Below, one piece after another: positions 11,118 to 61,726 of a stretch of DNA of 64,000 nt. Source of the stretch: Squalus acanthias (taxonomy: Eukaryota); the NCBI GenBank assembly GCA_030390025.1, contig CM059431.1, positions 116,004,001 through 116,068,000 on the forward strand, in the 5' to 3' direction. The notes under the pieces were generated by a model. That model saw only the letters and a list, made by a program, of their open reading frames with translations. It was not told where the DNA came from and did not search any database. Numbering within the stretch: position 1 is the first letter of the stretch; each line of letters starts with the position of its first letter. The translations under genes were made by a program, and so were the position numbers.

Positions 11118-11342
11118 AGTGGTCATGATGTGGAGATGCCGGTGTTGGACTGGGGTGGACAAAATTGAGAGGTCGCACAACACCAGGTTATAGTCCAACA
11201 GTTTTATTTGAAATCACAAGCTTTCGGAGCTATCGATTTGCTCCTTCCTCCACCTGAGGAAGGAGCAAATCGATAGCTCCGAAAGCTTGTGATTTCAAAT
11301 AAAACTGTTGGACTATAACCTGGTGTTGTGCGACCTCTCAAT
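11118..11342 (-). mobile_element. Penelope-like fold-back short element, family B, inserted in CR1 ORF2
   Basis: Perfect 87-bp inverted arms (11164-11250 / 11256-11342) plus a unique tail. TSD (T)CTTATATTCTAT at 11105-11117 and 11342-11354. Confidence 0.85.
11251..11292 (+). ncRNA. Minimal type I hammerhead ribozyme motif (family B)
   Basis: cac-CTGAGGA-a-GGAGC(aaatcgata)GCTCC-GAA-AGCT-T-gtg: core boxes, 5-bp helix II, palindromic helix III, helix I cac/gtg. Confidence 0.75.
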
Positions 11343-14300
11343 CTTATATTCTATGCCTTGGCTAACGAAGGCAAGTATCCCATATGCCTTTTTAACCACC
11401 TTATCTACCTGTCCTGCTGCCTTCAGGGATCTATGTACATATACACCAAGGTCCCTCTGATCCTCTGTCCTTCCTAGGGTCCTACCATTCATTGTGTATT
11501 CCCTTGCCTTGTTAGTCCTCCCAAAATGCATCACCTCACACTTTTCAGGGTTAAATTCCATTTGCCACTGTTCTGCCCATCTAACTATCCCGTCTATATC
11601 GCCCTGTAGCCTGAGGCTTCCCTCCTCGCTATTTACCACTCCACCAATTCTCGTGTCATCTGCGAACTTACTGATCATACCTCCTACATTCATATCTAAA
11701 TCATTAATGTACACTACAAACAGCAAAGGACCCAGCACCGATCCCTGCGGTACACCACTGGACACAGTTTTCCAGTCACAAAAACAACCTTCAACCATCA
11801 ACCTCTGCCTCCTGCCACTAAGCCAATTTTGGATCCAATGTGCCAAATTGCTCTGGATCCCATGGATTCTTACCTTCTTGACCAGTCTCCCATGTGGGAC
11901 TTTGTCAAAAGCCTTACTGAAGTCCATGCAGACTACATCAACTGCACTACCCTCATCCACACACCCAGTCACCCCCTCAAAAAATTCAATCAATTTGGTC
12001 AGACATGATCTCCCCCTGACAAAGCCATGCTGACTATCCCTGATGAATCCCTGCCTCTCCAAGTGGAGACTAATTCTGTCCCTCAGAACTTTTTCCAATA
12101 ATTTCCCTACCACTGATGTTAGGCTCACTGGCCTGTAATTCCCTGGTTTATCCCTACTACACTTCTTGAACAATGGTACTACGTTAGCTGTTCTCCAGTC
12201 CTCTGGCACCTCCCCTGTGGCCAGAGAGGTTCTGAAAATTTGTGTCAGAGCCCCTGCAATCTCCTCCCTTGCCTCACACAGCAGCCTGCAATACATCCCG
12301 TCTGGGCCTGGGGATTTATCCTTTTTAAGCCCGCTAAAACCGCTAGTACCTCCTCCCTCTCAATACTAATTTGTTCAAGTATATCATAATCCCCCTGCCT
12401 GATTTCTATGCCTACATCACCCTTCTCCATAGTGAACACAAATGCAAAATATTCATTTAAAACCTCACCTACATCTTTCGGCTCTACACACAGATTGCCA
12501 CTTTGGTCCCTAATGGGCCCTACTCTTTCCCTGATTATCCTCTTGCCCTTAATATACTTGTAAAACACCTTGGGATTTTCCTTTATTTTGCCCGCCAGTG
12601 TTTTTTCATGCCCCCTCTTCGCTCTCCTAATTTCTTTTTTAAGTACCCCCTGCACTTTCTATACTCCTCTAGGGCTTCCACTGTTTTTAGTCCTTTGTAT
12701 CTGCCAAAATCCTTCCTTTTTTTCCTAATCCATTCTTGTATATCCCTTGACATCCAGGGCTTCCTCGGCTTGTCGGTCCCACCCTTGACCTTTACGGGAA
12801 CATGTTGGAGTTGTACTCTCTCCATTTCCTTTCTGAAAGACTCCCATTGCTCTGATGTGGATTTTCCTACAAGTAGCTGATCCCAGTCCATTTTGGCCAG
12901 ATCCTGCCTTATCATATTAAAATTGGCCTTCCCCCAATTTAGAACCTTTATTTCCAGTCCATCTTTGTCCTTTTGCATGACTACCTTAAATCTCACTGAA
13001 TTATGGTCACTGTCACCAAAATGCTCTCCTACTGACACTTCTACCACTTGCCCGGCTACATTCCCTCGAATTAGGTCCAGTACCGCCCCCTCTCTTGTAG
13101 GACTTTCTGCATGCTGGCTCAAAAAGCTCTCCTGGATGCACTTTAAGAATTCCGCACCCTCTAAACCTTTCACACTCTGACTATCCCAGTTAATATTGGG
13201 GAAGTTGAAATCCCCTACTATTATTACCCTATTATTTCTACACTTCTCTGAGATTTGCCTACATATCTGTTCCTCTGTCTCCCCCTGACTGTTTGGGGGC
13301 CTATAGTACACTCCCAGCAAAGTGCTTGCCCCCTTTTTGTTTTTAAGTTCTACCCATATGGCCTCATTAGAGGAACGTGCTAAGATATCATCCCTCCTTA
13401 CAGCAGTAATTGACTCCTTGATTAATATTGCGACACCCCCTCCTCTTTTACACCCCACTCTGTCTCGCCTGAAGATTCTATACCCCGGAATATTGAGCTG
13501 CCAGTCCTGCCCCTCCCTCAACCATGTCTCTGTGATAGCAACAATATCATACTCCCATGTGTTCATCAACACCTTCAATTCATCTGCCTTACTCGCAAGA
13601 CTCCTTGCATTAAAATAAATGCCATCCAGCCTTGCCATACTCCCTTGTGCTGTTACATATTTGCTCTGCCTTCCAGGCTGACTTGTTTTTTCCTCTATAT
13701 TTGGCTGTGCATCACTCCCTACTATAGCTCCACTCCGTATCCCATCCCCCTGCCAAGTTAGTTTTAACCCCCCCAACAGTACTACCCGCAAGGATGTTGG
13801 TCCCGTTCCAGTTCAGGTGTAACTCGTCCGACTTGTACAGGTCCCACCTTCCCCAGAAGCAGACCCAGTGATCCAGGAAACTAAAGCCCTCCCTCCTTCA
13901 ACAACTCTTTAGCCACGCATTCATCTGCTCTCTCCTCCTATTCCTATACTCGCTAGCACGTGGCACCGGGAGTAATCCAGAGATTACAACCTTTGAGGTC
14001 CTGCTTTTTTATCTGCTACCTAGCTCCCTAAATTTTTGTTGCAGGACCTCATCCCTCTTTCTACCCATGTCGTTGGTACCAATGTGAACCACGACCTCTG
14101 ACTGTTTGCCCTCCCCCTTCAGAATGCCCTGCAGCCGTTCAGTGACATCCTTGACCCTGGCACCAGGGAGGCAACATACCAACCTGAGGTCACATCTGCG
14201 GCCACAGAAACGTCTATCTGTTCCCCTTACGATAGAATCCCCTGTCACTATTGCTTTCCCACTCTTTTTCCTCCCCTCCTGTGCAGCTGAGCCACTCATA

Positions 14301-14643
14301 GTGCCACGGACTTGGCTCTTGCTGCATTCCCCTGAGAAACCATCTCCCCCATCAGCATCCAAAATGGAAAATCTGTTGGAGAGGGAGATGGACCCAGGGG
14401 ACTCCTGCACTACCTTCCTAGTTCTTTTACTCTGTGTGTCTTTTATGGTGATCTACAAACATTTATGTGCTACTGCCTCACTGGATTTTTCAATCCCCAG
14501 CCAAGCATGATACAGGCCAAGCTCTCTAGCTAAGGCTTTCCTGTGCCAGTAGCCTTATACAAAATACCTGAGCATATCTGACACACAACTGATTCAGCCA
14601 TCCATCACCAGATCTGGCTCAACCACATGAAGCATTATCATCT

Positions 14644-14826
14644 ATGGAGAAAGCAACAGAGTTAACGTTTCAGGTCGATGATCTTTCATCAGAACAGATG
14701 AAAGGTCATCGACCTGAAACATTAACTCTGTTTCTTGCTCCACAGATGCTGCCTGACCAGCTGCGTATTTCCAGCATTTTCAATTTTTATTTTAGATTTC
14801 TAGCATCCGCAGTACTTTGCTTTTGT
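14644..14826 (+). mobile_element. Penelope-derived fold-back element, family A
   Basis: Inverted arm 14644-14695 followed by a forward copy of the terminal repeat seen at 54970-55073. Confidence 0.8.
14660..14695 (-). ncRNA. Minimal hammerhead ribozyme motif (family A), one helix II mismatch
   Basis: Reverse strand reads gtt-CTGATGA-a-AGATC(atc)GACCT-GAA-ACGT-T-aac. Confidence 0.6.
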
Positions 14827-16170: not shown

Positions 16171-19100
16171 ATAGAACATAGAAACATAGAAGATAGGAGC
16201 AGGAGTAGGCCATTCGGCCCCTCGAGCCTGCTCCGCCATTTAATGAGATCATGGCTGATCATCCAAATTTAGTACCCTGTCCCTGCTTTCTCCCCATATC
16301 CCTTGATCCCTTTAGCCTTAAGAAATATATCTAACTCCTTCTTGAATATATTTAATGAATTGGCCTCAACTGCCTTCTGTGCTAGAGAATTCCACAGGTT
16401 CACCACTCTCTGCGTGAAGAAATTCCTCCTCATCTCGGTCCTAAATGGCTTACCCCTTATCCTTAGACTGTGACCCCTGGTTCTGGACTCCCCCGCCATC
16501 TGGAACATCCTTCCTGCATCTAGTCTGTCTAGTCCTGTTAGAATGTTATAAGTTTCAATTAGATCCCCTCTCATTCTTCTAAACTGTTGCGAATACAAGC
16601 CCAATCGTCCCAATCTCGCTTCATACGTCATTCCTGCCATCCCAGGTATCAGTCTGGTGAATCTTCGCTGCACTCCCTCCATGGCAAGAACATCCTTCCT
16701 CAGATAAGGTGACCAAAACTGCACACAATACTCAAGGTGTGGTCTCACCAAGGCCCTGTACAACTGCAGCAAGACATCCTTGCTCCTGTACTCGAATCCT
16801 TTCGCTATGAAGGCCAACATACCATTTGTCTTCTTAACCGCCTGCTGCGCCTGCATGCTTCCCTTCAACGACTGGTGCACAAGGACTCCCAGGTCTCGTT
16901 GCACTTCCCCTTTTCCCAATCTATTGCGGTTCAGATAATAATCTGCCTTCCTGTTTTTGCCACCAAAGTGGATAACCTCGCATTTATCCACATTATACTG
17001 CATCTGCCATGCATCTGCCCAATCACCCAACTTGTCCAAATCATACTGGAGTTTCTCTGCATCCTCGTAACAACACACACGCTCACCCAGCTTTGTGTTG
17101 TCTGCAAACTTGGAGATATTACATCTAGTTCCCTCGTCTAGATCATTAATATATATTGTGAATAACTGGGGTCCTAGCACCGATCCCTGCGGTACCCCAC
17201 TAGTCACTGCCTGCCACTCGGAAAAGGACCCGTTTATTCCAACTCTTTGCTTCCTGTCTGCCAACCAGTTCTCTATCCAAGTCAGTACCTTACCCCCAAT
17301 CCCATGTGCTTTTACTTTGCACACTAATCTCTTATGCAGGACTTTATCGAAAGCCTTCTGAAAGTCCAAATACACCACATCCACTGGTTCTCCCTTATCT
17401 ATTCTACCAGTTACATCCTCAAAAAATTCCAGTCGATTAGTCAAGCATGATTTATCTTTTGTAAATCCATGTTGAGTTTGTCCGATCCTTTCACTGTTTT
17501 CCAAGTGCTCTGCTATTACATCTTTTATAATGGACTCTAGCATTTTCCCCACTACCGATGTCAGGCTTACCGGTCTATAATTCCCCATTTTCTATCTCCC
17601 ACCTTTTTTAAATACTGGGGTTACATTAGCTACCCTCCAATCCATGGGAACTGTTCCAGAGTCTATAGAATTTTGGAAGATGACCAGCAATGCATCTACT
17701 ATTTCTAGGGCCACTTCTTTAAGTACCCTAGGATATAGATTATCAGGCCCTGAGGATTTATCGGCCTTCAATCCTGTCAATTTCCCTAACACCATTTCCC
17801 TACAAATATTGATTTCATTCAGTTCTTCCCTCTCATTAGACCCTATGTTCCCCGACATCTCTGGAAGGTTATTTGTGTCCTCCTTTGTGAAGACAGAACC
17901 AAAGTATGTATTTAATTGGTCAGCCATTTCTTTGTTCCCCATTATAAATTCCCCTGATTCTGCCTGCAAGGGACCTACACTTGACTTCACAAATCTTTTT
18001 CTCTTCACATATCTTTAGAAGCTTTTACAGTCAGTTTTTATGTTCCCTGCAAGCTTACTCTCATACTCTATTTCCCCCCTCTTAATTAATCCCTTTGTCC
18101 TCCTTTGCTGAATCCTAAACTGCTCCCAATCCTCAGGTTTGCTGCTTTTTCTGGCCAATTTATAAGTCCTCTCCTTGGATCTTATGCTATCCCTAATTTC
18201 CCTTGTTAGCCATGGTTGAGTCACCTTTTTTGTTTTATTTTTATGCCAAACAGTGATGAACAAATTCTGTAGTTCATCCATGTGATCTTTAAATGTTTGC
18301 CATTGCCTATCCACCATCAACCCTTTAAGTAACGTTCCCCAATCCATCCTAGCCAATTCACGCCTCATACCATCATAGTTTCCTTTATTTAAATTCAGGA
18401 CCCTAGTCTCTGAGTCAACTACTTCACTCTCCATCTTAACGAAGAATTCTATCATATTATAATCGCTCCTCCCCAAGGGGCCTCGCACAACAAGATTGCT
18501 AATTAATCCTTTCTCATTACATAATACCCAATCTAAGATAACCTGATCTCTAGTTGGTTCCTCAACATATTGGTCCAGGAAACCATCCCGTATACACTCT
18601 AGGAATTCCTCCTCCACAGTATTGTTACTAATTTGGTTATCCCAATCTATATGTAGATTAAAGTCACCCACGATAACTGCTGTGCCCTTATTGCACACAT
18701 CTCTAATTTTCCATTTAATGCCATCCCCAACCTCAGCATTACTGTTTGGGGGTCTGTATACAACTCCCACTAACGTTTTCTGCCCCTTGGTATTTCTCAG
18801 CTCTACCCATACAGATTCCACATCATCAGAGCTAATATCCTTCCTTACTATTGTGTTAATCTCCTCTTTAACCAGCAATGCTACCCCACCTCCTTTTCCT
18901 TTGTAACAACAGAAAACGCTGGAAAAACTCAGCTGGCCTGCTGAGTTTTTCCAGCGTTTTCTGTTGTTATTTCGGATTTCCAGCATCTGCAGTATTTTGC
19001 TATCCTTTTCCTTTGTGCCTGTCTTTCCTGAATACTGAATACCCCTGGATGTTGAATTCCCAGCCTTGGTCACCTTGGAGCCATGTCTCCGTAATCCCAA

Positions 19101-20589: not shown

Positions 20590-21145
20590 CACTGAGAGAG
20601 TGCATGATCAAAGGTGCTGTCTTTGTAGTCACACCTTAAACTGACACTTCTGTCTGTTCAGGTGTATGTAAAAGATTCCATGACATCAGTCAAAGAAGAG
20701 CAGGAGAGTTCTCCCAATGTCCTGGCCAACAATTATCCATCAACCAACATCAACAGATAGATTATTGTGTTATAAAAGCAGAAAATGCTGGAAATACTCA
20801 GCAGGTCAGGCAGCATCTGTGGAGAGAGAAACAGAGTTAACGTTTCAGGTCAATCGACCTGAAACGTTAACTCTGTTTCTCTCTCCACAGATGCTGCCTG
20901 ACCTGCTGAGTATTTCCAGCATTTTCTGTTTTTATTTCAGATTTCCAGCATCCACAGTATTTTGCTTTTGTATTAGATTATTGTGTTATTTTTCTCATTG
21001 CTGTTTGTGGGACCTTGCTGCACATAAATTGGCTGTCATGTTTGCCTACATAACACCGATGACTACACTTCAAAATTAATTGATTGGCTGTATGTCACTT
21101 TGGGACATCCTGAGGTCATGAAATACTATATAAATGCAAATTCTT
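20590..21145 (+). mobile_element. DeuSINE (SacSINE1-like), interrupted at 20774-20973
   Basis: Deu-domain-like gtaaaagattccatg..gaagagcaggagagttctcc..gtcctggccaac and the same tail as 25198-25645. Confidence 0.75.
20774..20973 (+). mobile_element. Family A Penelope-derived fold-back element
   Basis: Near-perfect inverted arms of about 78 bp centred at ~20853. 16-bp TSD TAGATTATTGTGTTAT at 20758-20773 and 20974-20989. Confidence 0.88.
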
Positions 21146-29490: not shown

Positions 29491-31981
29491 GGGGGAAAAT
29501 GTGTCCTCTTAGCACCTCCTGTTATCACCAGCAGATGGGGCTAACAGGGTGCTAGAGCATTATTGGTGGGGCGAGGCGAATCCAACGCCACACACCAAAT
29601 CCTGCCCTCCCGTAGCGCCACTGGTAACAGTTATCGCCGGGAACCTCAACGCCAGGTGGATCATGATGTCAGTGAGTGTGCAACACTCACTGACTGCCCG
29701 ATCTGTGAAATTGATTGTCACCACCTACCTTAGCGCCTGGAGTAAACAGCGACAGGGAGAGCTGGTGTGAAACAGTCGGAAGCTGGCTCCAGGGACGTTA
29801 TTTAAAAGGATCATCAGTAATGACGTGCAGCTGTCAAGTTAGTGGAGTTTCAGTGGTTTCTTGTCAGTTTCACATAGTTCATTCTTATATGAAGTTCACA
29901 TTTATTCTTTAAAAAAATCAAACTGCTACACTTGGTTACATTAATGTGGGCTGTGCTGGCAGTTGACCTTGCTCACCACGGAGAACTTCGACCCTAGCGC
30001 TGAGTTCAGCGAAGGGTCCGAAGCATGCCAGGTAAACTCAGCATGCAGCAGACTCACAGAGGCGCTGTCAGCACCTCTTAAAGGGACACACACATCTTTC
30101 AGGTAAGTTTGCATTTAAGCTTTTGGACTTTTTGCTTTTACTGAAGTAGTGGCTTGCTGCAATAGATGTTAAAAGTTTTTTAAGTGTGTAAGGAGTGCTG
30201 CTGGATGCTTGCAAGTCTACATATGGTAAAGGAAGGCCTCTGAGAAGACAGGAAATGCCACAAATACTCAGCAGGTCAGGCAACATCCGTGAAGAGAGAA
30301 ACAGAATTTAACCTCAGGAAAAGATGTTGCCTGACCTGCTGAGTATGTCTAGCATTTTATGCTGTCATTTCAGATTGATACCATCCGCACGCAGAGGGAA
30401 GAGGAAGACATAGAAGAGGAGGAAACAGAAGAGGAACAAGCCGAAGAGGATGAAGCAGAAGAGGAGGAAGCAGAAGGAAGGATACAGCCCAGACAGCCCC
30501 TTTCTGGCTGGGATATCCAGGATGGAATCATCCGCCTGCGGTCCCAGTGACCACAACCCCAATTCCCCTTTCAACATTAGCCCCACACCTAACCTTCCCT
30601 CTGTTCCTGACCATCACAATGTCCTCTTGGCCATGATGCTGAAATAAAAGCCACTGCAAAGCAAACTTTCCAATGTAACTTTATACATCCATCCAATATG
30701 ACATCAAGAAATCAACTCATCACTCTTATGCATTCTCTTAGTGACTGTCTTGTGTGTGCCTTTGCCTATCCTACTGATGTCATGCAGTGCCTCCCCAGTG
30801 ACTGCAGCATGGCTGGTGGAAGGCTGCTGACTTTCAGTGAGGGACACTACAAATGGCCTTGCTGGTTGACCTTGAGGAGCTGGTGGCTGGGATGTGTGAA
30901 ATTGAGTGATGGTGTTTCTTCTTCTTCTTCACTCTCCTCTCCCTCTTCTTGGCAAACCATTGGCTGGGCAGGCTCCATTTCTTGGGTGTGTCAAATGAGG
31001 AAGGCACAAAGTGGAGTTGTGGCGAGGGGAGGGCGGGAAAGCAAGAGGTGCATGCCAGAAGGAGGATAACATATGAGGATACCAGCATCTTGTATCCTTT
31101 CTGCCCCACTGCTGGCCAAGGGCTCAGCCATGCTCCTGCCAAGAATGGCCTGCACCATCTCCTCCAAAGGGGTGAGGTGAAGCAAGGAATGGGTGACATG
31201 CCTCATGATTGTTGGTAGGTGAGTTATTGCGGAGGGAGTCATGCATTGAGCAGTGTGTGAGGCTAGTGATTCAGTTAGTAGGAGACGGCTTTTGAAGATG
31301 CAGTCACTGACCTTGACCAGTGGTCTGAGGTCATGAAGCTTCTTTGGACACTGGAGCCAGATGTTGGGGGCGATACTGCTGTAGTGACGGCCTCAATGAT
31401 CTGGTCCCACATCGTTCTTTCTGGAGGACCTCTTGGCCCCTGTGGGTAGAGGACCTCTCTTTCAGTGTTGACCCCCTGCACAAAGCTGGAGTGCTGCGTG
31501 CGGGACCCTAGGTGCCAATTCCTTGTTTTGCTGAGCCATTTGTGTTAGTGCTGAAGTACTTTTCCCTTTTTTTGCGGTTCAGAAGGGAATTCAGCTTTAA
31601 GTGCTAAAGACTCCCATTTGGGACTTCTTTTTAATGAGGCAGTAGGGCTGAAAACTGCATTTCCTCACTTCATTTTACTTCTGAACACATTGCCCCTTTA
31701 ATTCATAGCCCTTTTAATTGCCCACAATTCCTTGTGAACTCCACATCCTCGCTCCCAGAGCCTGTTAGAAGCTGGAACACCACTTCAGGACGGGATCTTC
31801 GACTGCCACGCCTGCACTAACGCCACCAATAAAGCGTTACACAGTAAGTTAGCGTGCGGTTAACAATCTTTAGCCCCAGCATAAATTTTTCTAGGGTATA
31901 GCTGTGTCCATTTTCAGCGGCCGTTAACCCGAGTTGCTGGTGATACCGGCAACTCTTGTGGTGGCCATGAATTTCTAGGCC
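29491..31981. mobile_element. Decayed non-autonomous Harbinger derivative (ends approximate)
   Basis: Acidic transposase-like C-terminus 30385-30550 (+, EEED..QDGIIRLRSQ*) converging on a Myb exon-1 remnant 31300-31490 (-, REVLYPQG..WDQI). TIR-like ends at ~31876 and ~31981. Degenerate family A fold-back at ~30245-30372. Confidence 0.55.
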
Positions 31982-34892
31982 ATTGTGGTTTTTTTTTTTC
32001 ATTTTCTTTTAACACTCATTAGTCATAAAAATATTAGAATTGGGGAAAAAAGGCTGTTTGCCTGGGTTGGGCTGGGCGGAGTGGTTGGAGGCGAGAGGCC
32101 ATGGGATGAAATCTCCAGGAATACGTCGAAACAGAGTTGGCAACCCTGGCGCCGGGTGGCGTGTGTGATGCAGCTTGCTGAGAAGTGCCCAGTTCCTGGC
32201 TACCACCAGGTGCCTTGGACCAACTTCTCAAAGGAGGACAACTGTCTGACATTGGGAGGCTTTCTGCGAAAGAATGTCCGATCTCAGTCATTGTGAGCTG
32301 CCTTCCCTTGGAGCACACACAAGACATACACTTGTTTAAAACTGGAAAAGCACACAGACAGACAGCCCTGTGTACGTGTGCTCCAATGCAGCTTGCATAT
32401 CGGTTCCAGTCACAGTACTGATTCGCTGGACAGATTTTAACATTTATCACTTTGAAAGCTACTTTTGTGCCTTAATAGAAGTGTTCCTTACAGCTTCCCC
32501 ACAGTGGAAGAGTGGTGAAAAAGGTTATCTCTACATCTTGACTTCTAATTCCATGAGGGTTAGTTAGTCAGTTAGTTCGGCCTATGCGAACTGCAGCCCA
32601 AAAGTACAATAATGTATGCAACGATGGATACACTTTCTTTGGCTGTCCTCTTAATATCACAAAACAACTTCAGCATTTTTTACCAGGCCCAAAACTCCAT
32701 TCACACTTGCAGCTATCTCCATTTAAACAGCTTGAGTGTGGCCTTTTGCTTCAACAAAGACTATCTTCTTTTGCTGCAGAATCCTCAAGGCCACCTCAGT
32801 AAAAGGGAGAGTTTTCCTATATTCCTGTTTTTTTAGACATTTTTACTGGCACGCACCACCTCTGCACATTTTGCCTGCAGCTCCTCACTTTCCTTCCCCA
32901 GAAAGCTGAACAATCAGTGTTGGCATTTTCAGCACCCCAGGTGTTATCCTGACTGAGATGAGCTTGATGACCAAAGATAGATTCTGGGACTGGTTTGTAC
33001 AGCTCAATACCATATTCATTTCAAGGGATGGGCAGAGCATTTGCTGAATTGCACATCATACCAATGGCCGCCATCAAAATCATTGTTTATAAACTAATAT
33101 AATTCAGTTTAACTAACTTTGAATTTAAGTTGGTTCATTAAAAATGCCCGCACACACAAGGTGTAATTATTTTAGTCATTGAAAGCATGTATCACAGCCC
33201 TTCATCAAAATTAATGTGCTTTTCAGATTTTGATAATTGCATATTAAGGACATTTGCATTTAAATTAAGTAAGACATGTAATGTAATTAAAATGCTAAAT
33301 AATGTTTGATAGAACTTCTTTTCTTAAAGAGCTAGAACACGGGTGTTTCCACTCCTTTACTACAATGTAGTCACTTCACAAATATCCCTAGATTGGGTGA
33401 AGTTCCTCTCATAGGCCTTCAAAGCAAGCTGCGAATGTGGCTGACTTATAACACCTTATCATTTCACAGGAGTGCCTATAGGATTGGGCTGGGTTGGACA
33501 GAAAGCCATGGCAGGGCACCTGCTATCAACAGAGGAGTGAAGGAAGTGGGCACAGGGCTTTTAAAAAATATATGCATAGTTGTGGTGGAGAGTGTACCTG
33601 CAGTGTGTGAATGCTCATGAAAACATCCAAGTCAAGCTCAATCCATGGACACTTTCCACCTGTCCTCCTCAGGTCAATGTGGCTCAAACCATACATTTCA
33701 TACCTACTGATTTTGAATTTGTTACTGTTTGATGACTATGACATTCCGCCAGTCAGAAAATGTTATACAGAACTATGATGCCCAAAGTGTCACACAGGTA
33801 GTGTGAAATGATAAACAGTACCATTTTTATTACCTAATTAGCATATTTGCCTTGCTTTTGCTCCTGGTGATTCAGAGGTTATGCTGATTATTAGGAGGTG
33901 GGTTGTTGGAGAAAGTCCTGGCTTAACAACATTACAGATGGAAGAGACTCTGAATATATACTTATATGTAATTTTTATGATCAGTAAGGATTAAGGAGCT
34001 GTCTGAAATGAACACTCAAGTGGAATTCATACTGTCTCAGCATTTTGTGCAACTTGTTCAGACCTTTTGATTTTTAATATTATGGTGCAAGTTTTTGATT
34101 TTTTTAAATTAAATAATAATTTTCATTAATTTTAGTTGTCTCATTTATGTATTTTGGGAATTACAAAATAGCAAATGGTGTAATACTTGATCATAGCTAT
34201 AGTATTACCACCGTTGAGACTATTGCATTTCACTTCTTGATAGAACTGCAAGACATTAAAGGAAATCACAAGAGAACATTTTTTTTTGTCAGCCAGATGT
34301 CTGATCTGCACAGAAAATCTATAACCATGCTTAAGAGTTCCCAATCCAAAGTACATAGAGACCCACATAAGTAGAGATTCTGTTTGCCTGATATAAAATG
34401 CTCAGACTATTGCCAGAGGGACAAGCTGCACATACCTAAGCATGAAGAGCTTAGATTCAGACTGGCAACAGCCAAGGTTAGCAGATCTTCCCTCCTCCCC
34501 CCAAGTGCTTGCCGAGGTACTGCTGGAGTTTAGCCCACTCTAAAATCCCTGGCAACTTACCAAAGCATCTGTAGTAAGCCTCCCAGTGCATGTTCAGTGA
34601 GCACCATCTTATGTTTCAGAGCATCAGCTTGTAAGGCTATCTGGAGATAAACAAGGAGAATCCAGCCCCCAATGACAGATCTGCAACATCAATCAGGCTG
34701 ACTGCAATCCTTTTGAAGGTGATATTATGAAGCTCATTTTATCTACATGCTTTATATAGAATGTGACTCCATAGTGGAGATATATTTTCCATAAATACGC
34801 AGCAACCCAGCAGAACTCAGATGTTAAACTTTTTGCTGCTATATTTTTCAGTTTTACCATCACTTTCGTTTTCCACAGCTGGGAGAAGAGTA

Positions 34893-35095
34893 ATGTGAGA
34901 AGTCACACAACACCAGGTTATAGTCCAACAGTTTTATTTGAAATCACAAGCTTTCGGAGCGGCTGCTCCTTCGTCAGGTGAAGGAGCAGCGCTCCGAAAG
35001 CTTGTGATTTCAAATAAAACTGTTGGACTATAACCTGGTGTTGTGCGACTTCTCACATTTGTCCACCCCAGTCCAGCACCGGCATCTCCACATCA
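34893..35095 (+). mobile_element. Penelope-like fold-back short element, family B
   Basis: Inverted arms of about 80 bp plus the same tail as 11118-11163. 12-bp TSD GGGAGAAGAGTA at 34881-34892 and 35096-35107. Confidence 0.87.
34944..34981 (-). ncRNA. Minimal type I hammerhead ribozyme motif (family B)
   Basis: Reverse strand reads tcac-CTGACGA-a-GGAGC(agcc)GCTCC-GAA-AGCT-T-gtga. Confidence 0.78.
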
Positions 35096-35124: not shown

Positions 35125-35200
35125 AAACACAGAAAATGCTGGAAATACTTAGCAGATCAGGCAGCATCTGTGGAGAGAGAAACAGAGTTAACATTTCAGA
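35125..35200 (-). mobile_element. Family A Penelope terminal-repeat fragment
   Basis: Matches 20775-20850. Confidence 0.7.
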
Positions 35201-37506
35201 TCGTGATGGAATAACAATGTCGTACAGGTATAGTAATTACACAGTTGCAAATTAGACTCACCAGTGCATTATTCTTAAGGTTATGGAATGTAGCAGGACA
35301 TTTCACAGCTCAAACACCTTGAAGTGGGACAACCCTTGCCTGGAAAGAAATGCGGTTTTTGGGCCTACAGACACTTACCAATATCCAGAATTAAATTCCA
35401 GTGTGTTACTAGGCTTCTAAAAGAAAGTCTAAAGAGTCAAGAATGCGCGGCACTGGCTATTTGCCTTTCAAGGTCACCTCATTCATTCTTTATGTAGTCG
35501 ACGCAGAGTCTAACCTCTCCAGCTGGATTTGGAACTATGATCACAGGAAACATGCACATGCTGAGGCCGGCTCAATAATATCTTCTGGTTGCATCGTGTT
35601 AATTTGTTTCTCTTTTTTTGCTGATGGCCTACATTAAGGGACAAAAGCAATGGAGCAGGCTGCCTGTCTCAATGTAATATCAATCAGTCCTGGTTCAATT
35701 TATATCCTGTACCCGCCCTATCAATTACAGGTTTACAGCAAAATGCACAGAGATTAATATACTTCAAGCAGGCTTAGCTTGATACAAAAATTAAATATTA
35801 TTTTTTAATGCAGCCTCAACTCTGGCTGTGTGCAGCGGTACTGCTGCCATTGCCACAATTGTGGTTAAAATGTAAATCCATACAACTAAGATTAAAAACA
35901 GACAAACTATCAATGGGGCTTAATTCCCCTTTCCCCTTTAGGTACATTGAAGGTCACCTCATTCGACCTTCAGCATCCCCAAGCTGGCTTGGGACATTTC
36001 AACATTTTGGACACCCCTACTTTAAATGTTACGATGTCTGATTAACCAATTATCACTTTTACAGATGCTCAGTTGTAATGGCATCATATTTTTATTCAGT
36101 ACTGACCCTTTATTTACAAAGCCAGGTTTTATAAATCGTGTCCCTTTTCAGAGTGATAGTGTGTTGTTTATGTATTCAGTCAGAAGAATAATGAATTAAC
36201 AAAAAAAGCGCAAGAGAAGGTGGGATGCTGTTATTAAAAGACGAAGTACTGGGGTGGAAACTGAAATTAATTTCTGAGAATATTGAACACAGCTTTTGTG
36301 TAAATGTGAATGGAACACATCAGAATAAAGAACTGAATGAGATTTCTATTTTCTCAGCAGTTTGTCCCATGGAACCATTGACATTTACACAACATGCATG
36401 TTGAGAAATGTAATTTCCGCTGACTTTTTGTATCTGTTAACCTTTAATTGTTCAGAAACCATGGGCCTGAAATTACAGTGGGATACAAGTTTTTATTTCA
36501 AATGTCTAATGTGCTAGTCTAAAATTCCGCTCTCTGCTATTTCAGTGGAGGCTTTTTCTTTTATTACTCCAAGTACTACTAAATTCCCGTCTGTCAGCTC
36601 AGCAGTGACGACGGGGTTGAATGAATTCACTCCACTGTTGTCGGTTTTGACCTAGCCTAGCCGCTTCAGTCATCTCTATCCCTTTCGGTGACAAGTCACT
36701 CTTGACATTGTCTATCCAGCGCTTCCTTGGTCTTCCTAGGCCTGAATGGCCTGCTCCTGCTCCTATTTCTTATGTTCTTATGTTCCTTGGTTTCTTGTTC
36801 CATGTACCTCTGTGTGCAGGGCCATGAAAGGTATCCCAGCTCTTTCCATTCTTGAAACTAGGGTTGCCAACTCTGGTTGGACATATTCCTGGTAATCACG
36901 TGGATTTCTGTGCTCCAACCGCCCCATCCCAGACTCCTGCCATCGGTTGCCCAACTAGCCCATCCTCGGGGCGCCCCGCATTCCCACGGCAATCAGAAAA
37001 TGAGCAGACTCTTTGGGGTGGATTTTAACATGGTGGAGCGCATGGGTTTGGGTGCGGGTGGGAGGGTTGAAACCGGGAAAAATGTCAGCGCATCGGGAAG
37101 CCGGCTCCAACCCGCCGACTTCTGCATTTAACTCGAGGCGTTAGGCTGCTTGCGCTCAACCTCCTCGGGAGAGGCGGGTTGCCAATTACCATATGTTAAT
37201 CACTCAATTAGATTGATATTAACACACATTTTTGATTTTAGCATCCGGTACACGGGTTTCCCGGGCTTCCTGAAACTCGCCAGTGAAAGCAAGCTGAGAA
37301 CACAACGGCAATTGATGGGGATGAAGCCCTGTCAGGGAAATATGCCAATAAATACTCAGTACTCACAGCTGCTTTCTTACCTGCTAGTGGGAAAGAGTTT
37401 GTTCACAGTACTTTTGCCGAGAGGTTACTTTCTACACTTTGGAGGTTACTTTCTACTTTTTCGAGTTTACATTCTGCACTTTGGAGGTTTGTTCTATCTC
37501 ATCAGG

Positions 37507-50138: not shown

Positions 50139-52200
50139 AAAAAATAACAAAAAGATTGATTAAGAAAGGGAAGATAGATTATGAAAGTAAATTAGCAAAA
50201 AATATAAAAACAGATAGTAAGAGTTTTTATAGTTATATAAAAAGAAAAAGGGTGGCTAAAGTAAATGTTGGTCCCTTAGAGGATGAGACCGGGAAATTAA
50301 TGGTGGGAAATATGGAGATGGCAAAAACACTGAATGAATATTTTGTATCAGTCTTTACAGTAGAGGACACTAAGAATATCCCAACACTGGACAAACAGGG
50401 GGCTATAGGGGGAGAGGAGCTAAACACGATCAAAATCACTAAGGAAGTGGTACTCGGTAAAATAATGGGACTCAAGGCGGATAAATCACCTGGACCTGAT
50501 GGCTTACATCCTAGAGTCTTGAAGGAAGTGGCGGTAGGGATTGTAGATGCATTGGTAATAATTTTTCAAAACTCCCTGGATTCCGCTAAGGTCCCGGCAG
50601 ACTAGAAAACTGCTAATGTAACACCCTTATTTAAAAAGGGCAGTAGACAGAAGGCTGGTAACTATAGACCGGTTAGCCTAACATCTGTGGTAGGTAAAAT
50701 TTTGGAGTCCATTATTAAGGAAACAGTAACAGGACATTTGGATAATCATAATTTAATAGGACAAAGTCAGCATGGTTTTACGAAGGGGAAGTCATGTTTG
50801 ACAAATTTGCTGGAGTTCTTTGAGGAAGTAACATATAGAGTGGATAAAGGGGAACCAGTGGACGTAGTGTATTTAGACTTCCAAAAGGCATTTGACAAGG
50901 TGCCACACAAAAGATTATTGCTTAAGGTAAAAATCACGGGATTGGGGGTAATATTCTGGCATGGATAGAGGATTGGCTATCTAACAGAAAGCAAAGAGTT
51001 GGGATAAATGGTTCATTCTCAGACTGGCAATCAGTAACTAGTGGTGTTCCACAGGGGTCAGTGCTGGGTCCCCAACTCTTCACAATCTATATTAATGATT
51101 TGGAGGAAGGGACCAAGTGTAACATATCAAAATTTGCAGATGATACAAAGATGGGAGGGAAAGTAGTGAGTGAGGAGGACATAAAAAACCTGCAAGGGGA
51201 CATGACAGGCTAAGTAAGTGGGCAGAGATTTGGCAGATGGAATACAACACTGGAAAGTGTGAGGTGATGCACTTTGGCAGGAAAAATCCTAGAGCAATTT
51301 ATTATCTTAATGGCAAGAAACTGGAGAGTACTGAAGTGCAAAGGGATCTGGGGGTCCTGGTGCACGAAACTCAAAAGGTTAGTATGCAGGTGCAGCAAGT
51401 GATTAAGAAGGCAAATGGAATGTTGGCTTTCATTGCTAGGGGGATAGAATATAAAAATAGGGAGGTATTGCTTCAGTTGTACAAGGTATTGGTGAGACCG
51501 CACCTGGAATACTGCATACAGTTTTGGTGTCCTTACTTAAGGAAAGACATCCTTGCTCTCGAGGCAGTGCAAAATAGGTTCACTCGGTTAATCCCGGGGA
51601 TGAGGGGGTGGTTATATGAGGAGAGGTTGGGTAGATTGGGACTCTACTCATTGGAGTTCAGAAGAATGAGAGGCGATCTTATTGAAACATATAAGATTGT
51701 GAAGGGGTTGGATCGGGTGGATGCGGGGAGGATGTTCCCGATGACGGGTGAGACTAGAACTAGGGGACATAGTCTTAGAATAAGGGGCTGCTCTTTCAAA
51801 ACTGAGATGAGGAGGAACTACTTCACTCAGAGGGTGGTAGGTCCATGGAATATGCTGCCACAAAAAGCTGTAGAAGCTACAACATTAATTAAATTTAAAA
51901 CAGAAATAGACAGTTTCCTAGAAGTAAAGGGCATTAAGGGTTGCGGGGAGCGGGCAGGAATTTGGACATGAGTCTAGGTTCGGATCGGTCATGGCCCTGT
52001 GGGTAGTGGAGCGGGCCCAGGGACCGTGTAGCCTGATTCTGCTCCTATTTCGTGTGTGCAATTCTGTTAGATGCAGGAGATGGTTCTGTGATAGATAGTA
52101 GATTGGCGGTTAGGATCAGATCAGCCATGATCTTATTGAATGGCGGAGCAGGCTCGAGGGGCCGATTGGCCTACTCCTGCTCCTATTTCTTATGTTCTTA
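50139..52200 (+). mobile_element. 5'-truncated CR1 LINE inserted in the 3' UTR of the preceding CR1
   Basis: ORF2 pieces 50139-50605, 50687-50968, 51237-51971 (ends GERAGIWT*). Has its own 3' UTR and tail, followed by the host CR1 tail. Confidence 0.9.
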
Positions 52201-52289: not shown

Positions 52290-53660
52290 ATTTAAGGTTG
52301 CAGACATTTTGACATCCAGAGTCTGCATGGTGGTGTTCAAGGCGTGCATGGACTCATTTGATTAGAGCGTATGATGGTCCATGGCACTGGCCACTCTATC
52401 CATGGAAGAAGGCATCATCTCAGTGGCCTGCAACATTGCCTCCCTAATGCTTGAGGTGGACTCCTCCAATCTCTCTGCAATCGTGGTGATTCCACTTTGA
52501 AGGCCTGTCAGTGCATTGCACAATGTCTGCTCAATGATTCTCCTCTTCATCGATGGCCCTCGGGGTACAGCATCTGTGTCCAGCTGAGAAGAGCTTGGAG
52601 AGGGCTGCACCCTCCAAAACGACTCTCCACTGCTGTCCCCGACTCCACTATCTGCTCTTGCTCACTTGTGAATTGTGAGTCACCAGGTGAAAACCCAACT
52701 ATCTGTCTTACTGGTCCCACCGAAATGTGAGTATCTGATATGGTGCATGGTCTGAGTGAGTCCTGTGACGGTGCACCCTCAGAAGGACTCAGCTCCTCTG
52801 AAGACTTGTCGCCCGCCACCTCCACCAACTCCTGCTGCACAAGTGAAGGTCCTGTGGGAGATAAAATACATGAATTAGTAGTGGCAAGGTAACAATGATG
52901 AAGATGATCATATTTCACTCGCTGTTGAACCCAAGTCAACATGACTGAGTGCCGTATGACATGCGGATGGCTTTTAATTTTGTCACCAGGGAGCTTGGAG
53001 CTCCCTGTCTCACCATCTCCGACAGCCAGTGATGCCATAACTCCACTGATCTCCAGTGTCTCCTCCTCTGTAGTTGTTAGCTGCGTGATCTGTGGAGGGT
53101 CTCCTCCAGTTCTCTCCCTGTCCCTTGTGTTCTGTGCTCTCTTCTCCTGCAAGGAGAAAAAGAAGAGACATACGAGTGAGTGTCATGGCATGTGTTCATC
53201 CGATGGATGGAGTGCATTTGGTGAGGGTGACTATGAGGGATAAGGGTGAGTGGGCATGGTTGCTGGATAGCTGGGGAATGTGAGGAAATGGATACAAAGA
53301 GAATGATGGGTGCACCTGTAAGGTAAGTGGCTGTGAGGAGCGATGTAGGCTTGAGAAGGCAGATTGAGCCAATGGCGTGATGTGGACATCAGGATGTAGG
53401 TGAATGTGGCACTGTACTCACCTTGCCTGCCCTGCTTAGGTCATTAATCTGCCTTCTGCATTGAATCCAAGAGCATGGCACCACACTCCTGCTGCTGACC
53501 TTCACGGCAACCACCAACCATGCCTTCTTTGTCTCAGTAGCAGGCTTCTTCCTCCTATTGCTAGGGAAGAGTATCTCCCTCGGCTCCTCACAGCCCCCTG
53601 CAGCACATCCAGGGAGGTGTCCGTGAAGCAGGGCGCAGCCTTTGCCCATCTCAACTCCAT
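52290..53660 (-). pseudogene. Harbinger Myb/SANT-like gene, 3 exons, frameshifted and 3'-truncated
   Basis: Exon 1 53660-53422 (MELRWAKAAPCF..WIQCRRQINDLSRAGK|gtgagt). Exon 2 53146-52987 (160 nt). Exon 3 from 52851. Confidence 0.85.
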
Positions 53661-53889
53661 TGCAACACTTCCAGTTCTCTGACAGCCAACTCCAGCTCCT
53701 TCAACTTGCATGTTTGGATCGTCCCTTTAAATACTATAGTTGAGATCGCGTCATGCGAATCGACATCACACCCGCTGCTGCTGATTGGACGGGAAGCCCG
53801 GAAGGAAAATGATAATGAGGCGGCTGAGTTAAAAAGCCACTGACAGACGCGCTTAACATATTTCCGGGTTCCTACATGCTACCGGACAT

Positions 53890-54005: not shown

Positions 54006-54578
54006 GCTCCCAATGCATCTGCATATTAACATCCAGCCCTTTGATACCGATTGGACGATTCTTGACTGTCATTCAAACAGCCTTTTTCCCATCTCAGATA
54101 TTTTTTATAACTAATAAATAAAAGTGTTCAAAGAAAATGAAAACAAACCCACAATTTTGAATGCCCTTATGATTTTCTTCAGGGTTGCTCATAGCAGCGT
54201 TGTGGAGATTAATCTTCAATTCTCGGGACTCCAGGGCAATCCTGGAGGGGTGGCAACCTTACTTGAAACATATCCAAACCATCGCAGTTGTCTTTCTTGG
54301 ATCTTCTGTGTAAGCAATGTTTCTTGTCCAAGCCATGTTCTTATTATATCATTCTTAATTCTTTGCATCCGGATATGGCCAATATTCCTCTCAACCAACT
54401 CATCTCTGCTGTTAGTATCTATTCCTTGTCAACTTTTCTCATCTTCCAACACTCAGACTGTATAATAATATGGTGATATTTTTCATTATTAATGTTTTTT
54501 AAATTTTAAGTGCTTATCAAGGCAAAGGATGTTAATGCCGAGAACTGGAACCCAGTGTCGGCATCAAGCTCTCCCAGG

Positions 54579-55073
54579 TCACCTCCGTTCAGTCCGTAAG
54601 GGTGACCCCGAGCTTCCGGTCGCCTGTCACTTTAATTCTCCGCTCCACTCCCACTCTGACCTCTCTGTCCTCGGCCTCTTACACTGTTCCAATGAAGCTC
54701 AACGTAAGCTCGAGGAACAGCATCTCATCTTTCGATTAGGCACTTTACAGCCTTCTGGGCTCAACATTGAGTTCAACAATTTCAGGCAATAACCTCGGCC
54801 CCTATTTTTTCACATGGCAGTTGTTGATGATTCTGCCATCCACATTTGCAACATTTAACCACTCCTGCCTTCCACCCGATCACAGACCGTTCCTTTTGTT
54901 CTTTCTACCCCTCCCCCTCTCCCTGCCTCTGCACCTGCTTAAAACCTGTTGAATCTCTAACTTTTTCCAGTTCTGACGAAGGGTCACAGACCTGAAACGT
55001 TAACTCTGTCTCTCTCTGCACGGATGCTGCCTGGCCTGCTGAGTGTTTCCAGCATTTTCTGTTGTTATTTCAG
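54579..55073 (+). mobile_element. Penelope-like retroelement 3' fragment (GIY-YIG C-terminus plus terminal repeat, family A)
   Basis: HLRSV..LPVACHFNS..HSHSDL..RKLEEQHLIFRLGTLQPSGLNIEF..* (to 54792), then a pyrimidine-rich spacer and the family A repeat. Confidence 0.88.
54969..55005 (+). ncRNA. Minimal type I hammerhead ribozyme motif in the Penelope terminal repeat
   Basis: agtt-CTGACGA-a-GGGTC(aca)GACCT-GAA-ACGT-T-aact. Predicted cut after 55001 (GUU). Confidence 0.78.
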
Positions 55074-55385
55074 GCACAGCACTGCCAGGTACAGAGTAAA
55101 GCTCCCTTAACTCTAACCCCAACAACATCCCTCAGCTCCTGAGGAGCAGCTCTCCACTGCACCAGTATGACTTTTGTTTCATTTTCCATGCCAGCCATCC
55201 TGCAATCTCTCTAAGTGAGTTTAATAGACTAATGCCCTGCAGGAACTAGATAAGACTACTCAGACTCATTTCAAAGAGGTGCCTTGCAGTTAGCAAACAG
55301 AGGAATTCAACCCATCAATCTGGCCTGGATTTGAACTTAGGTCGCTGAGGTAAAAGGCCAGTAAAGCCTACTGTACCACCCAGGT
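55071..55385 (-). mobile_element. tRNA-headed SINE resembling LF-SINE
   Basis: Reverse strand has B-box-like agttcaaatcc, ccttttacctc and tgaaatgagt..agttcct blocks. The tail appears to continue at ~54550-54578 beyond the Penelope insert. Confidence 0.5.
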
Positions 55386-58926: not shown

Positions 58927-59070
58927 ATTTCGTCACGAAAGGTCATCGACCTGAAACGTTAACTCTGTTTCTCTTTCCACAGATGCTGCCTGACCTGCTG
59001 AGTATTTCCAGCATTTTCTGTTTTCATTTCAGATTTCCAGCATCCGCAGTATTTTGCTTTGGTATTAGTA
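58927..59070 (+). mobile_element. Family A Penelope-derived element with an 8-nt inverted arm
   Basis: tttcgtca|cgaaaggtcatcgacctgaaacgtt.. TSD TTAATCTGCA at 58917-58926 and 59071-59080. Confidence 0.8.
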
Positions 59071-59544
59071 TTAATCTGCACATTTCCCCAATAACACAGT
59101 GAATGAATATATCACATGATGCACTACTGACTGAAATATACCAGGAAGTTTACAGGCTTGATCCCTGGTTTGTGCAAAATGATCTGTCTTTTTAGCAGAT
59201 TTAGGAGTGCAGTAGTGATATTACAATTAATTTCCTTCATCGTCTTTGGACCTTGCCACAAGATTGGCTCGCTTTGCCACTGACTCCATCTTGTCCCCAG
59301 CTACTCTCTCGTCTAAACCAGACCCCTTCTGTGTCTTCTCACCACCTTCTAACAATTTGCACATTCTTTTGTCCTTTCTATACGTCTGTATTGTCTCATT
59401 GATGACCTTTTATATCACCTAACCTTTTTCCATTAAGCAATTTGTAGGTCATTTAACATATTAAATCTCTGTGAGGATTCTATTTTTCCACCCTTACCTT
59501 TTAGCTCCAAATTTAACCTGGGCAGGTTTGTGGGGTGGGTGGGT

Positions 59545-60172: not shown

Positions 60173-61726
60173 TGAGGCAGCTGGGTGTGGTATGGTGTGG
60201 GACCTGAGTCATTTTGATGGCTGGGCCTCATTTAAATTTTCTACATTGTCTTCTGCCTGAAGTCGGCGGGACTGATCTAAAAGCTGGCAGGAGGGAGCAG
60301 AAAATCGGGCAGGGGGCCAATACTGCTGGGGCCCAAGGGGAATTGTCCCTGGCATAAGGTTAGTGCTAGGGAAGGGGGTCACCAAAGAGCTACTGTTGGT
60401 GGGAGGGAGAGGGAAGGCCAGGCATGGGAGGCCCAAGGATTCCTTGTGGGGTCCAGTGGAGCCCTCCTGGCCCATAAGGAATCCTCACAAACGATTAAAA
60501 AAAATAAAACTTACACTCTGCTGCCTCCCGCCAGGTTTTGCTAGTGTGTTTGGCGCCCTATGGGCCTCCAGGGATTTCAAGTTAAAATTGCGGCCCTGCG
60601 GTGATGATATCATTGGGCTGCGACTCTCCTATTTTAATTAGGCTCCCATCTGCCTGTCACGGGCGGCCTCTGCGCTGCCAGAATTCTGTCAGTTAAAATG
60701 GCGGGGGGGGGGGGGGGCGGTGTGGAGGGGGAGGGCAAGCTGCAGGAACACATTAGCTTCCGCCCAGCCATCATTTTAACCCCCAGCCCACACTGTTCCT
60801 GCTGGGCGTGCTGCGTTACAAGCGGGACTTTTCTCTTTACAGATGCTGACTGATTTGTTGCGTAACTTCAGCATTTTCTGCTTTTTTTAAATTTCAGATT
60901 TCCAGCTTTAACGGTTTTGTCCCTTTTACTTTTCATCGAAGAGTACAACAGCAGCGGCCTTTCAGCACCTATTGGCCTGTCTATGGCCATTAAGGCTCTT
61001 TTGGTGTTACTGCAGTGTAATTATGAATAGCTACAGTCCAACCCTCTGAATGCATTTTCAACTTTTTTTCTATTACTTTACGGTCAACAGTAAATTAAGA
61101 TTATGCAAAGAACATAAAGTGTAATAATTAAAATTAAACAATTTAAGCACCAGGAACGATCCACTTGGCCTCATTAATCAGAATGTTTCATTTCGGAAAG
61201 AAGCTCAGGAAGACATGTCAGAAAATGACATTGAATTCCCTCGACTAGAATTATTCCAAAAATTCAAAAAGAGGAATGGTGACAATGTGGAAATAGTATC
61301 AAAAGACACTAGAAAGCCGGGAAAAAGATGCCACCTGCAAGATCCTCCAGAGGTTTTTCTTACAACAGTATGAAGTCACCCTTGGTTTCACCATAAATAC
61401 TTGAAGTGACAGATAGTCTCCTCCCACATTTTAGCGTATTAGGAGGCAGGGAGTATGATGTGGGCTGGAGACCAAACATGCTTCAAATGCTGTTCATAGT
61501 GGTTACCACAAGTTGCACTGCAGCATTACATCGCTGTTTGCAGCTTTAATTGTATTTATCCCTGTTTATCCCTTTACGGTGAATTAATGTCATGCATATT
61601 ATTTGAGCAAACACTTGTTCGATTCCAAAAACTGCAAAGAGGAGTCAATGCATCAAGAGGTTAAAAAGGGCAAACATCAGTTCTTTGTAAGTATAATTGT
61701 TCTTTCAGTGTGGAAGGTGAATAATA

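What the first reader, a model, noticed from the sequence alone, without database searches (positions are those of the whole stretch)
54579..55073. Family A: hammerhead motif physically linked to a Penelope GIY-YIG endonuclease end
Seen: the GIY-YIG C-terminus is followed about 180 bp later by agtt-CTGACGA-helix II-GAAACGTT-aact. The same repeat recurs without coding sequence at 14644, 18905, 20774, ~30245, 35125, 58927 and ~60830. This ties the abundant hairpin repeats to a Penelope master element. Families A and B share no obvious flanking sequence, yet both have an extra A after CUGANGA, a 5-bp helix II, a 4-nt palindrome (ACGT vs AGCT) as helix III and an NUU site. Inference: a conserved, dimer-dependent ribozyme architecture.
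Basis: partly seen in the sequence, partly recalled or inferred. Interest (0 to 1): 0.72.

Follow-up and report, generated by a model that had tools for sequence, protein, structure and literature searches.

The report
Penelope retroelement tail with minimal hammerhead
This is the broken-off tail end of a Penelope-like jumping gene in a shark-type genome, carrying the small hammerhead motif (predicted to cut RNA, not tested here) that is already known from such elements, so it is real but largely ordinary.

Summary
54580-55073(+) is a 5'-truncated copy of an endonuclease-positive Penelope-like element (PLE), probably Neptune clade. It has the last 70 codons of the GIY-YIG endonuclease, the stop at 54790-92, and 180 bp later a minimal type I hammerhead (54969-55005; predicted cut 55001/55002). 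A strict descriptor finds 2 such motifs in the window and none in 300 shuffles.

One correction: the seven other family A loci are real, but only 1 of their 11 arms keeps CUGANGA. Their hairpins are inverted, truncated PLE copies with one-sided ~35-bp tails. Exact 10-16 bp target-site duplications flank 5 of 10 loci.

The features shared by families A and B (extra base after CUGANGA, palindromic helix III, dimer logic) and the link to PLE ends are published (Cervera and de la Pena 2014, PMC4209133). Copy ends do not fall at the predicted cut, as in the anole PLE, where cleavage is protein-assisted and not needed for reverse transcription in vitro (PMC11167929).

Small extra: a branch point/acceptor-like site ends inside helix I (54970), as in Drosophila Penelope. 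Verdict: new member of a known kind, low interest.

The parts
54580..54792 (+). C-terminal 70 codons and stop of a PLE GIY-YIG endonuclease (5'-truncated; GIY/YIG motifs absent, later H, E, N positions kept)
   Evidence: Depth rises about 3-4 orders of magnitude in the bin 54574-54602, and loose ends at 54580 continue in frame into upstream endonuclease sequence in 4 of 4 runs.
54793..54968 (+). 3' untranslated / pseudo-LTR spacer, pyrimidine-rich
   Evidence: Covered in every bin, with overlapping contigs chaining from the ORF to the hammerhead (run X6 records 26, 29, 30, 31).
54957..54970 (+). Branch point (CTAAC), pyrimidine tract and CAG: 3' splice-site-like motif ending inside helix I (inferred, not shown to be used)
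   Evidence: 18 such sites in 128 kb of both strands, one ending at 54970. Post hoc chance about 0.002. Parallel to D. virilis Penelope.
54969..55005 (+). Minimal type I hammerhead motif: helix I 54969-72/55002-05, core 54973-79, extra A 54980, helix II 54981-85/54989-93, GAAA 54994-97, palindrome 54997-55000, predicted cut 55001/55002
55006..55073 (+). 3' part of the pseudo-LTR up to this copy's end; the ~35-bp optional tail is absent here
   Evidence: (loose ends at 55063, 55070, 55073)
54567..54579 (+). Possible decayed 13-bp target-site duplication, left copy (right copy 55078-55090, 2 mismatches)
   Evidence: background 0.5%; one of 10 loci tested
14639..14826 (.). Family A inverted pair; the minus arm keeps CUGAUGA but has a helix II mismatch; the plus arm has the tail
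18904..19002 (.). Family A inverted pair, no hammerhead core, one-sided tail, 14-bp TSD
20772..20973 (.). Family A inverted pair centred on the helix II hairpin, no core, one-sided tail, 16-bp TSD
30248..30385 (.). Family A decayed inverted pair, no core
35125..35206 (-). Family A single truncated copy starting in helix II, no core
58935..59070 (+). Family A single copy truncated inside the core, with tail and 10-bp TSD
60832..60905 (+). Family A old fragment downstream of the hammerhead
11126..11345 (.). Family B inverted pair, core on + arm (11254), one-sided tail, 12-bp TSD
34892..35095 (.). Family B inverted pair, intact minimal hammerhead on - arm (34977), one-sided tail, 10-bp TSD

Best explanation
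54580-55073 is a 5'-truncated, non-autonomous copy of a Penelope-like retrotransposon (likely Neptune clade) that keeps the end of the endonuclease gene and a minimal hammerhead motif, and it was likely inserted by the master element's endonuclease and reverse transcriptase from RNA not cut at this hammerhead. Mechanism, step by step. (1, inferred) A full-length tandem master is transcribed through its pseudo-LTRs. (2, inferred from the anole PLE) Its protein nicks DNA and starts reverse transcription at one of two internal sites downstream of the hammerhead. That gives the two classes of 3' end seen here: tail-less at about 55062-55073, tailed about 35 bp further (ends shown). (3, shown as structure) Synthesis usually stops early and often restarts on the new strand, leaving 80-220 bp single or inverted copies with target-site duplications, most lacking the core. 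This copy ran 494 bp and so kept the endonuclease end. (4, inferred) In the master, two hammerheads would pair through the ACGU palindrome, probably with help from the element's protein, and cut after GUU to process tandem RNA. This lone copy is predicted not to cut on its own.
For: Protein: close homologs carry the Pfam GIY-YIG domain directly upstream of the matched stretch. It was seen in 15 of 25 longer hits at E<=0.01, mostly below the curated cut-off. RT plus GIY-YIG occur in one protein (P0042, P0136). The CX2-5CxxC linker of Neptune/Nematis is in 18 of 30 homologs long enough to test. Boundaries: 4 of 4 runs (three organisms) show high cover confined to 54574-55073, in-frame upstream continuation at 54580, mixed flanks at 55063/55070 and a shared tail after 55073. 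PLE insertion signature: all 6 inverted pairs have the tail on one arm only. 5 of 10 loci have exact 10-16 bp duplications against 0.25% background. This is the structure described in PMC8557442. Ribozyme: the motif fits the published metazoan min-HHR consensus and never occurs in 300 shuffles. No cut-site ends: 0 of 11 other arms begin at 55002, and 11 of 11 end at least 25 nt past the cut, in line with PMC11167929. Monomer: helix I pairing probability 0.02-0.04; the core instead pairs with the palindrome at 0.6-0.99.
Against: No full-length family A element was seen. RT, linker and GIY-YIG motifs are known only from homologs and from loose contig ends. 12 of 30 testable homologs lack the linker motif by my pattern, so the clade call is not firm. 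No single displayed contig spans the whole element. The explicit double-hammerhead fold is far less stable than the cofold minimum (-8.5 versus -22.9 kcal/mol), so the energy model does not support spontaneous dimer folding. Pair 10.1-11.1 is G-U here and A-U in other A copies, not the usual G-C, though both variants occur in published rows. Cleavage was not tested.
Confidence: 0.88

Rival explanations
1. The short copies are an independent non-autonomous family (SINE-like or non-LTR retrozyme) that spreads through self-cleaved, circular RNA, and this copy is a chimera or its PLE ancestor.
For: Vertebrate non-LTR retrozymes derive from PLE pLTRs and were found in one chondrichthyan (bioRxiv 10.64898/2026.07.22.740005). 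Short copies outnumber coding ones 7 to 1 in the window.
Against: Retrozymes are defined as head-to-tail tandems with a hammerhead in each unit. Here the copies are single or head-to-head, with ragged 5' ends, and 10 of 11 lack the core. None starts at the cut site.
Confidence: 0.07
2. Splicing gates the ribozyme: an intron ends inside helix I, so unspliced and spliced RNAs carry different hammerheads, and the 5' ends of many short copies mark the 5' region of the transcript rather than random stalls.
For: A branch point, pyrimidine tract and CAG end at 54970, inside helix I. The D. virilis Penelope intron ends at the 5' side of helix I. 6 of 11 other A arms start within 54970-54989 and none upstream of 54970. 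The 4 B arms also start at helix I or in the core (read).
Against: Found post hoc in one copy. U-rich 5' flanks are part of the min-HHR consensus anyway. No GT..AG joint ending at 54970 is among the 15 joints shown (211 hidden). One donor-like site (54704) is altered in most depth of run X12. This reading adds to the main one and does not replace it.
Confidence: 0.2
3. The motif is a chance or vestigial hammerhead look-alike that no longer has any role in the family.
For: Rfam finds no hammerhead here. The local fold is no more stable than shuffles (z -0.44). The predicted monomer hides the core. Hammerhead mutants of the anole PLE still insert in vitro.
Against: 0 descriptor hits in 300 shuffles against 2-4 in the window. 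Two families with unrelated flanks keep the same core while all four helix I pairs differ and stay paired. Among the 40 best-supported variable sites shown, only loop II (54987-88) falls inside the motif; 82 rows were hidden.
Confidence: 0.05

Closest known systems
Minimal hammerheads (min-HHR) in the pLTRs of metazoan PLEs (Cervera and de la Pena 2014, PMC4209133)
   Same: Type I; CUGANGA plus one extra base; short helix I; helix II of 5 bp; palindromic 15.2-16.2; NUH; U-rich 5' flank; mostly single genome-wide copies from truncated PLEs; reported in fish Xena, Poseidon and Neptune, coelacanth, Xenopus and turtle.
   Different: No cartilaginous fish is named in the parts I read or in the searched supplement files. 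Family A has G-U or A-U at 10.1-11.1 instead of G-C (both have precedents in the same alignment) and a 3-nt loop II.
Neptune-clade EN+ Penelope-like elements (as described in Craig et al. 2021, PMC8557442)
   Same: C-terminal GIY-YIG endonuclease with CCHH; CX2-5CxxC linker in homologs; hammerhead near the 3' end; strong 5' truncation; adjacent inverted copy; 30-40 bp one-sided tail.
   Different: This copy holds no RT or linker, so its clade is inferred from relatives and Nematis is not excluded by a tree.
PAc, Poseidon element of Anolis carolinensis (Frangieh et al. 2024, PMC11167929)
   Same: Copies end about 60-105 nt downstream of the hammerhead cut in two classes separated by a tail. An open frame also starts within the motif here.
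   Different: Different clade. The candidate start codon here would lie inside the core (ATG in some copies, ACG in this one) and could not be tied to a full-length protein.
Drosophila virilis Penelope hammerhead (PMC4209133)
   Same: A spliceosomal acceptor (predicted here) at the 5' side of helix I.
   Different: The Drosophila intron is established and its motif has a short helix III; here splicing is untested.
Non-LTR retrozymes of vertebrates (bioRxiv 10.64898/2026.07.22.740005)
   Same: PLE-derived, non-coding, type I hammerhead.
   Different: Those are head-to-tail tandems with a ribozyme per unit; none is seen in this window.

Membership tests
EN+ Penelope-like element | C-terminal GIY-YIG endonuclease of PLE type | tested here: met
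   The fragment aligns to the C-terminal half; homologs carry PF01541 just upstream. The GIY and YIG motifs are truncated away in this copy.
EN+ Penelope-like element | Telomerase-like RT upstream in the same ORF | tested here: inconclusive
   Absent from this copy and from the window. Present in homologs P0042, P0108, P0136 (47-51% identical over the endonuclease end).
EN+ Penelope-like element | 5' truncation, adjacent inverted copy, 30-40 bp tail at one end, variable TSD | tested here: met
   6 of 6 inverted pairs have a one-sided tail; 5 of 10 loci have exact 10-16 bp TSDs.
EN+ Penelope-like element | Partial tandem forming two pseudo-LTRs around a full ORF | not testable with these tools
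   No genome held; no related loci in metagenome or viral contigs.
Neptune clade | CX2-5CxxC zinc-finger linker between RT and EN | tested here: inconclusive
   Outside this copy. Present in close cartilaginous-fish homologs P0003 and P0004 and in 18 of 30 testable homologs. No RT tree was built.
Metazoan minimal hammerhead (min-HHR) | CUGANGA, GAAA, NUH core with helices I and II | tested here: met
   0 in 300 shuffles
Metazoan minimal hammerhead (min-HHR) | Extra base between positions 9 and 10.1; palindromic 15.2-16.2 | tested here: met
Metazoan minimal hammerhead (min-HHR) | G10.1-C11.1 pair (consensus above 80%, not invariant) | tested here: not met
   G-U in this copy, A-U in other A copies, G-C in family B. 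G-U and A-U also occur in published rows (Latimeria, Xenopus, D. willistoni), so this does not exclude membership.
Metazoan minimal hammerhead (min-HHR) | Self-cleavage as a dimer or with protein help | not testable with these tools
   Only contigs were available and they cannot show RNA ends. The folding model favours an inactive pairing.
Non-LTR retrozyme | Head-to-tail tandem units, each with a type I hammerhead | tested here: not met
   Window copies are single or inverted and mostly core-less.

The most novel reading that the evidence does not exclude
In this cartilaginous-fish PLE an intron ends inside helix I of the hammerhead, as in Drosophila Penelope. Splicing then removes two of the four helix I pairs and switches the ribozyme off (or re-forms it) in the mRNA: an old, splicing-gated ribozyme shared across PLE clades. 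The swarm of ~100-bp fold-back copies would be short reverse transcripts of the transcript's 5' end, some snapping back on helix II itself (20772-20935 is a palindrome centred on helix II).
Probability: 0.15. Interest if true: 0.5.

Novelty: new member of a known kind. Interest (0 to 1): 0.16.

Why it matters
As it stands it adds a cartilaginous-fish example to a known pairing of Penelope-like elements and minimal hammerheads, and explains a very common shark-type repeat as PLE tails. The role of PLE hammerheads in vivo is still open. The very many copies in such genomes could test it by mapping insertion ends against the cut site and the predicted splice acceptor.

Tried and rejected
Rfam finds no hammerhead in the window, only sub-threshold miRNA hits on the fold-backs. 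Pfam does not hit the 99-aa frame. The loose CUGANGA..GAAA pattern is not above chance. No whole genome is held, so no copy count or full-length element was obtained. Metagenome contigs gave nothing by protein or by a 22-nt repeat motif; viral contigs gave nothing either. No RNA holder was listed; run X16 is only guessed to be RNA, and all runs were contigs, so RNA ends and expression were not tested. The dimer-cleavage paper cited as ref. 134 in PMC6765202 (Lunse, Weinberg and Breaker) is not held; I saw only the review's passage. The frame that starts in the hammerhead found one partial hit, an annotated host isoform, and no PLE protein, so the ORF start is unresolved. Energy calculations gave no support for spontaneous double-hammerhead folding. 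Earlier findings near this place or by sequence: none. Rejected: hairpins as miRNA precursors or as the ribozyme fold (they are inverted duplications); cleavage as the source of copy ends (0 of 11 arms start at the cut).

Full report
Observation. The frame ending HLRSV...NNFRQ runs from 54580 to the stop at 54790-92. The hammerhead core CUGACGA begins at 54973, 180 bp after the stop. The loose core pattern alone is at chance level (12 versus 7.5 +/- 2.9). A full minimal-hammerhead descriptor gives 2 strict and 4 relaxed hits in the window and none in 300 of 300 shuffles. Rfam does not detect it.

The protein piece. Pfam does not recognise the fragment, because the GIY and YIG motifs are cut off. 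Relatives settle it. Nine longer proteins matched, the five best annotated from skates and rays, at 65-76% identity, which points to a cartilaginous-fish host (inference). In three of five scanned, a GIY-YIG match lies directly before the aligned stretch, one above the curated cut-off. The exhaustive search gave 594 relatives. Of 25 longer ones chosen from the 150 listed, 15 have a GIY-YIG match and 3 an RT match; P0042 and P0136 hold both. The CX2-5CxxC linker that marks Neptune and Nematis (PMC8557442, section 3 and passages) is in 18 of 30 homologs long enough to test. This is the only such coding piece in the window.

Boundaries in other genomes. Contigs of four public runs from three organisms were laid on 54400-55250 at 80% likeness. 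Cover is orders of magnitude higher between 54574 and about 55073 than outside. Loose ends at 54580 agree in all four runs and continue the frame as in homolog P0001, so this copy is 5'-truncated there. Loose ends at 55063 and 55070 are mixed (different insertion flanks), while those at 55073 share one continuation, the tail. Overlapping contigs of run X6 chain from the ORF to the hammerhead, so the link is a family property. No single displayed piece spans the whole element. This copy differs from over 80% of the X1 depth at 15 of the 40 sites shown (82 hidden), so it is not young. Depth here is not a copy number.

The other copies. All seven family A loci exist and give 11 arms. Only 14692(-) keeps CUGANGA, with a helix II mismatch and a 3-bp helix I. 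The arms start at positions equal to 54970, 54975, 54976, 54984, 54989, 54989, 54999, 55013, 55023, 55031 and 55033; none starts at 55002. Four A loci and both B loci are head-to-head pairs, and in all six only one arm carries the ~35-bp tail. Five of ten loci have exact 10-16 bp target-site duplications against 0.25% background. The focal copy has a 13-bp candidate with two mismatches. This is the published PLE insertion structure (PMC8557442, passages). The hairpins are therefore inverted duplications. In such copies the opposite arm is predicted to pair over part of the motif. A and B share nothing significant beyond the core, while their helix I pairs all differ and stay paired.

How it likely works. 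Shown: anatomy, homology, ends, tails, duplications. Inferred from the anole Poseidon study (PMC11167929, parts 1-2 of 4 read): reverse transcription starts at two internal sites downstream of the hammerhead, which explains the tail. There, uncut RNA was the main template, and the hammerhead cut only when protein was present. The ends seen here fit that. Inferred from PMC4209133 (parts 1-2 of 4 and supplement file 2 part 2 read; supplement file 1 could not be searched) and a review passage (PMC6765202): two motifs in a tandem transcript pair through the palindrome and cleave slowly. Folding gives no support for activity of the lone copy. Helix I has probability 0.02-0.04 and the core pairs with the palindrome at 0.6-0.99. 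The double-hammerhead fold is -8.5 kcal/mol against -22.9 for the cofold minimum. Such models omit tertiary contacts and protein help.

What is known. The extra base after CUGANGA, the palindrome, the dimer logic and the location in PLE terminal repeats are the main results of PMC4209133. Its supplementary alignment has rows laid out like family A (Nasonia) and family B (painted turtle). Pair 10.1-11.1 departs from the usual G-C in family A, but G-U and A-U also appear there. On sharks: a search for shark, Penelope and hammerhead ribozyme found one paper, where shark only explains the name. A search for shark genome, Penelope and transposable elements listed three papers, not read. A 2026 preprint reports PLE-derived retrozymes in one chondrichthyan (part 1 of 5 and passages). 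I did not find this family described in these searches, but repeat databases and most subscription papers were not searchable. Three earlier AI notes on other shark-type genomes reached the same reading; they are not independent support.

A small extra. CTAAC, a pyrimidine run and CAG end at 54970, inside helix I. Only 18 such sites occur in the window on both strands (post hoc chance about 0.002). In D. virilis Penelope the intron ends at the same place in the motif. Donor-like sites lie at 54596 and 54704. No such joint is among the 15 shown (211 hidden), so splicing is untested. The 20772-20935 palindrome is centred on helix II, which suggests snap-back on that hairpin. Self-priming was already proposed for PLE palindromes (PMC3846280, passages).

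Verdict. Observation confirmed, interpretation supported with the qualification that most copies are not ribozymes. It is a new member of a known kind. Interest 0.16.

Noticed in passing
window 54957-54970 (+): Branch point, pyrimidine tract and CAG end inside helix I of the hammerhead, as for the D. virilis Penelope intron; donor-like sites at 54596 and 54704.
   Followed up: partly
window 20772-20935: The fold-back is centred on the helix II hairpin (5' arm, loop with one extra base, 3' arm), as if the new strand snapped back on helix II.
   Followed up: partly
window 14639-14748, 11126-11345, 34892-35059: In three inverted pairs from two families, the longer arm starts 3-4 nt before CUGA and the shorter arm starts inside the core, hinting at a preferred 5' end at helix I.
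   Followed up: partly
window 54976-55073 and 58935-59102 (+): An open frame starts in the hammerhead core (ATG in 14697+, ACG here), 26 nt before the cut; it may be the start of the PLE ORF, but no full-length protein confirmed it.
   Followed up: partly
window 54540-54579 and 55074-55124: The flanks appear to be another repeat into which this copy inserted (raised cover at 55067-55124). One contig of a second organism crosses the 5' junction with 29 letters inside the element, a weak hint of a shared, older insertion.
   Followed up: no
window 50126-51971 (+) and 59465-60079 (+): Broken LINE ORF2 pieces (RVT_1 at 50606-51210); CR1-like by recalled resemblance only.
   Followed up: partly
window 52362-53700 (-): Interrupted reading frames that recall Harbinger-type Myb/SANT proteins (recalled; no Pfam hit).
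   Followed up: no
window 11254-11284: Both arms of this family B pair carry the same lengthened helix II loop, so the change predates the inversion.
   Followed up: no
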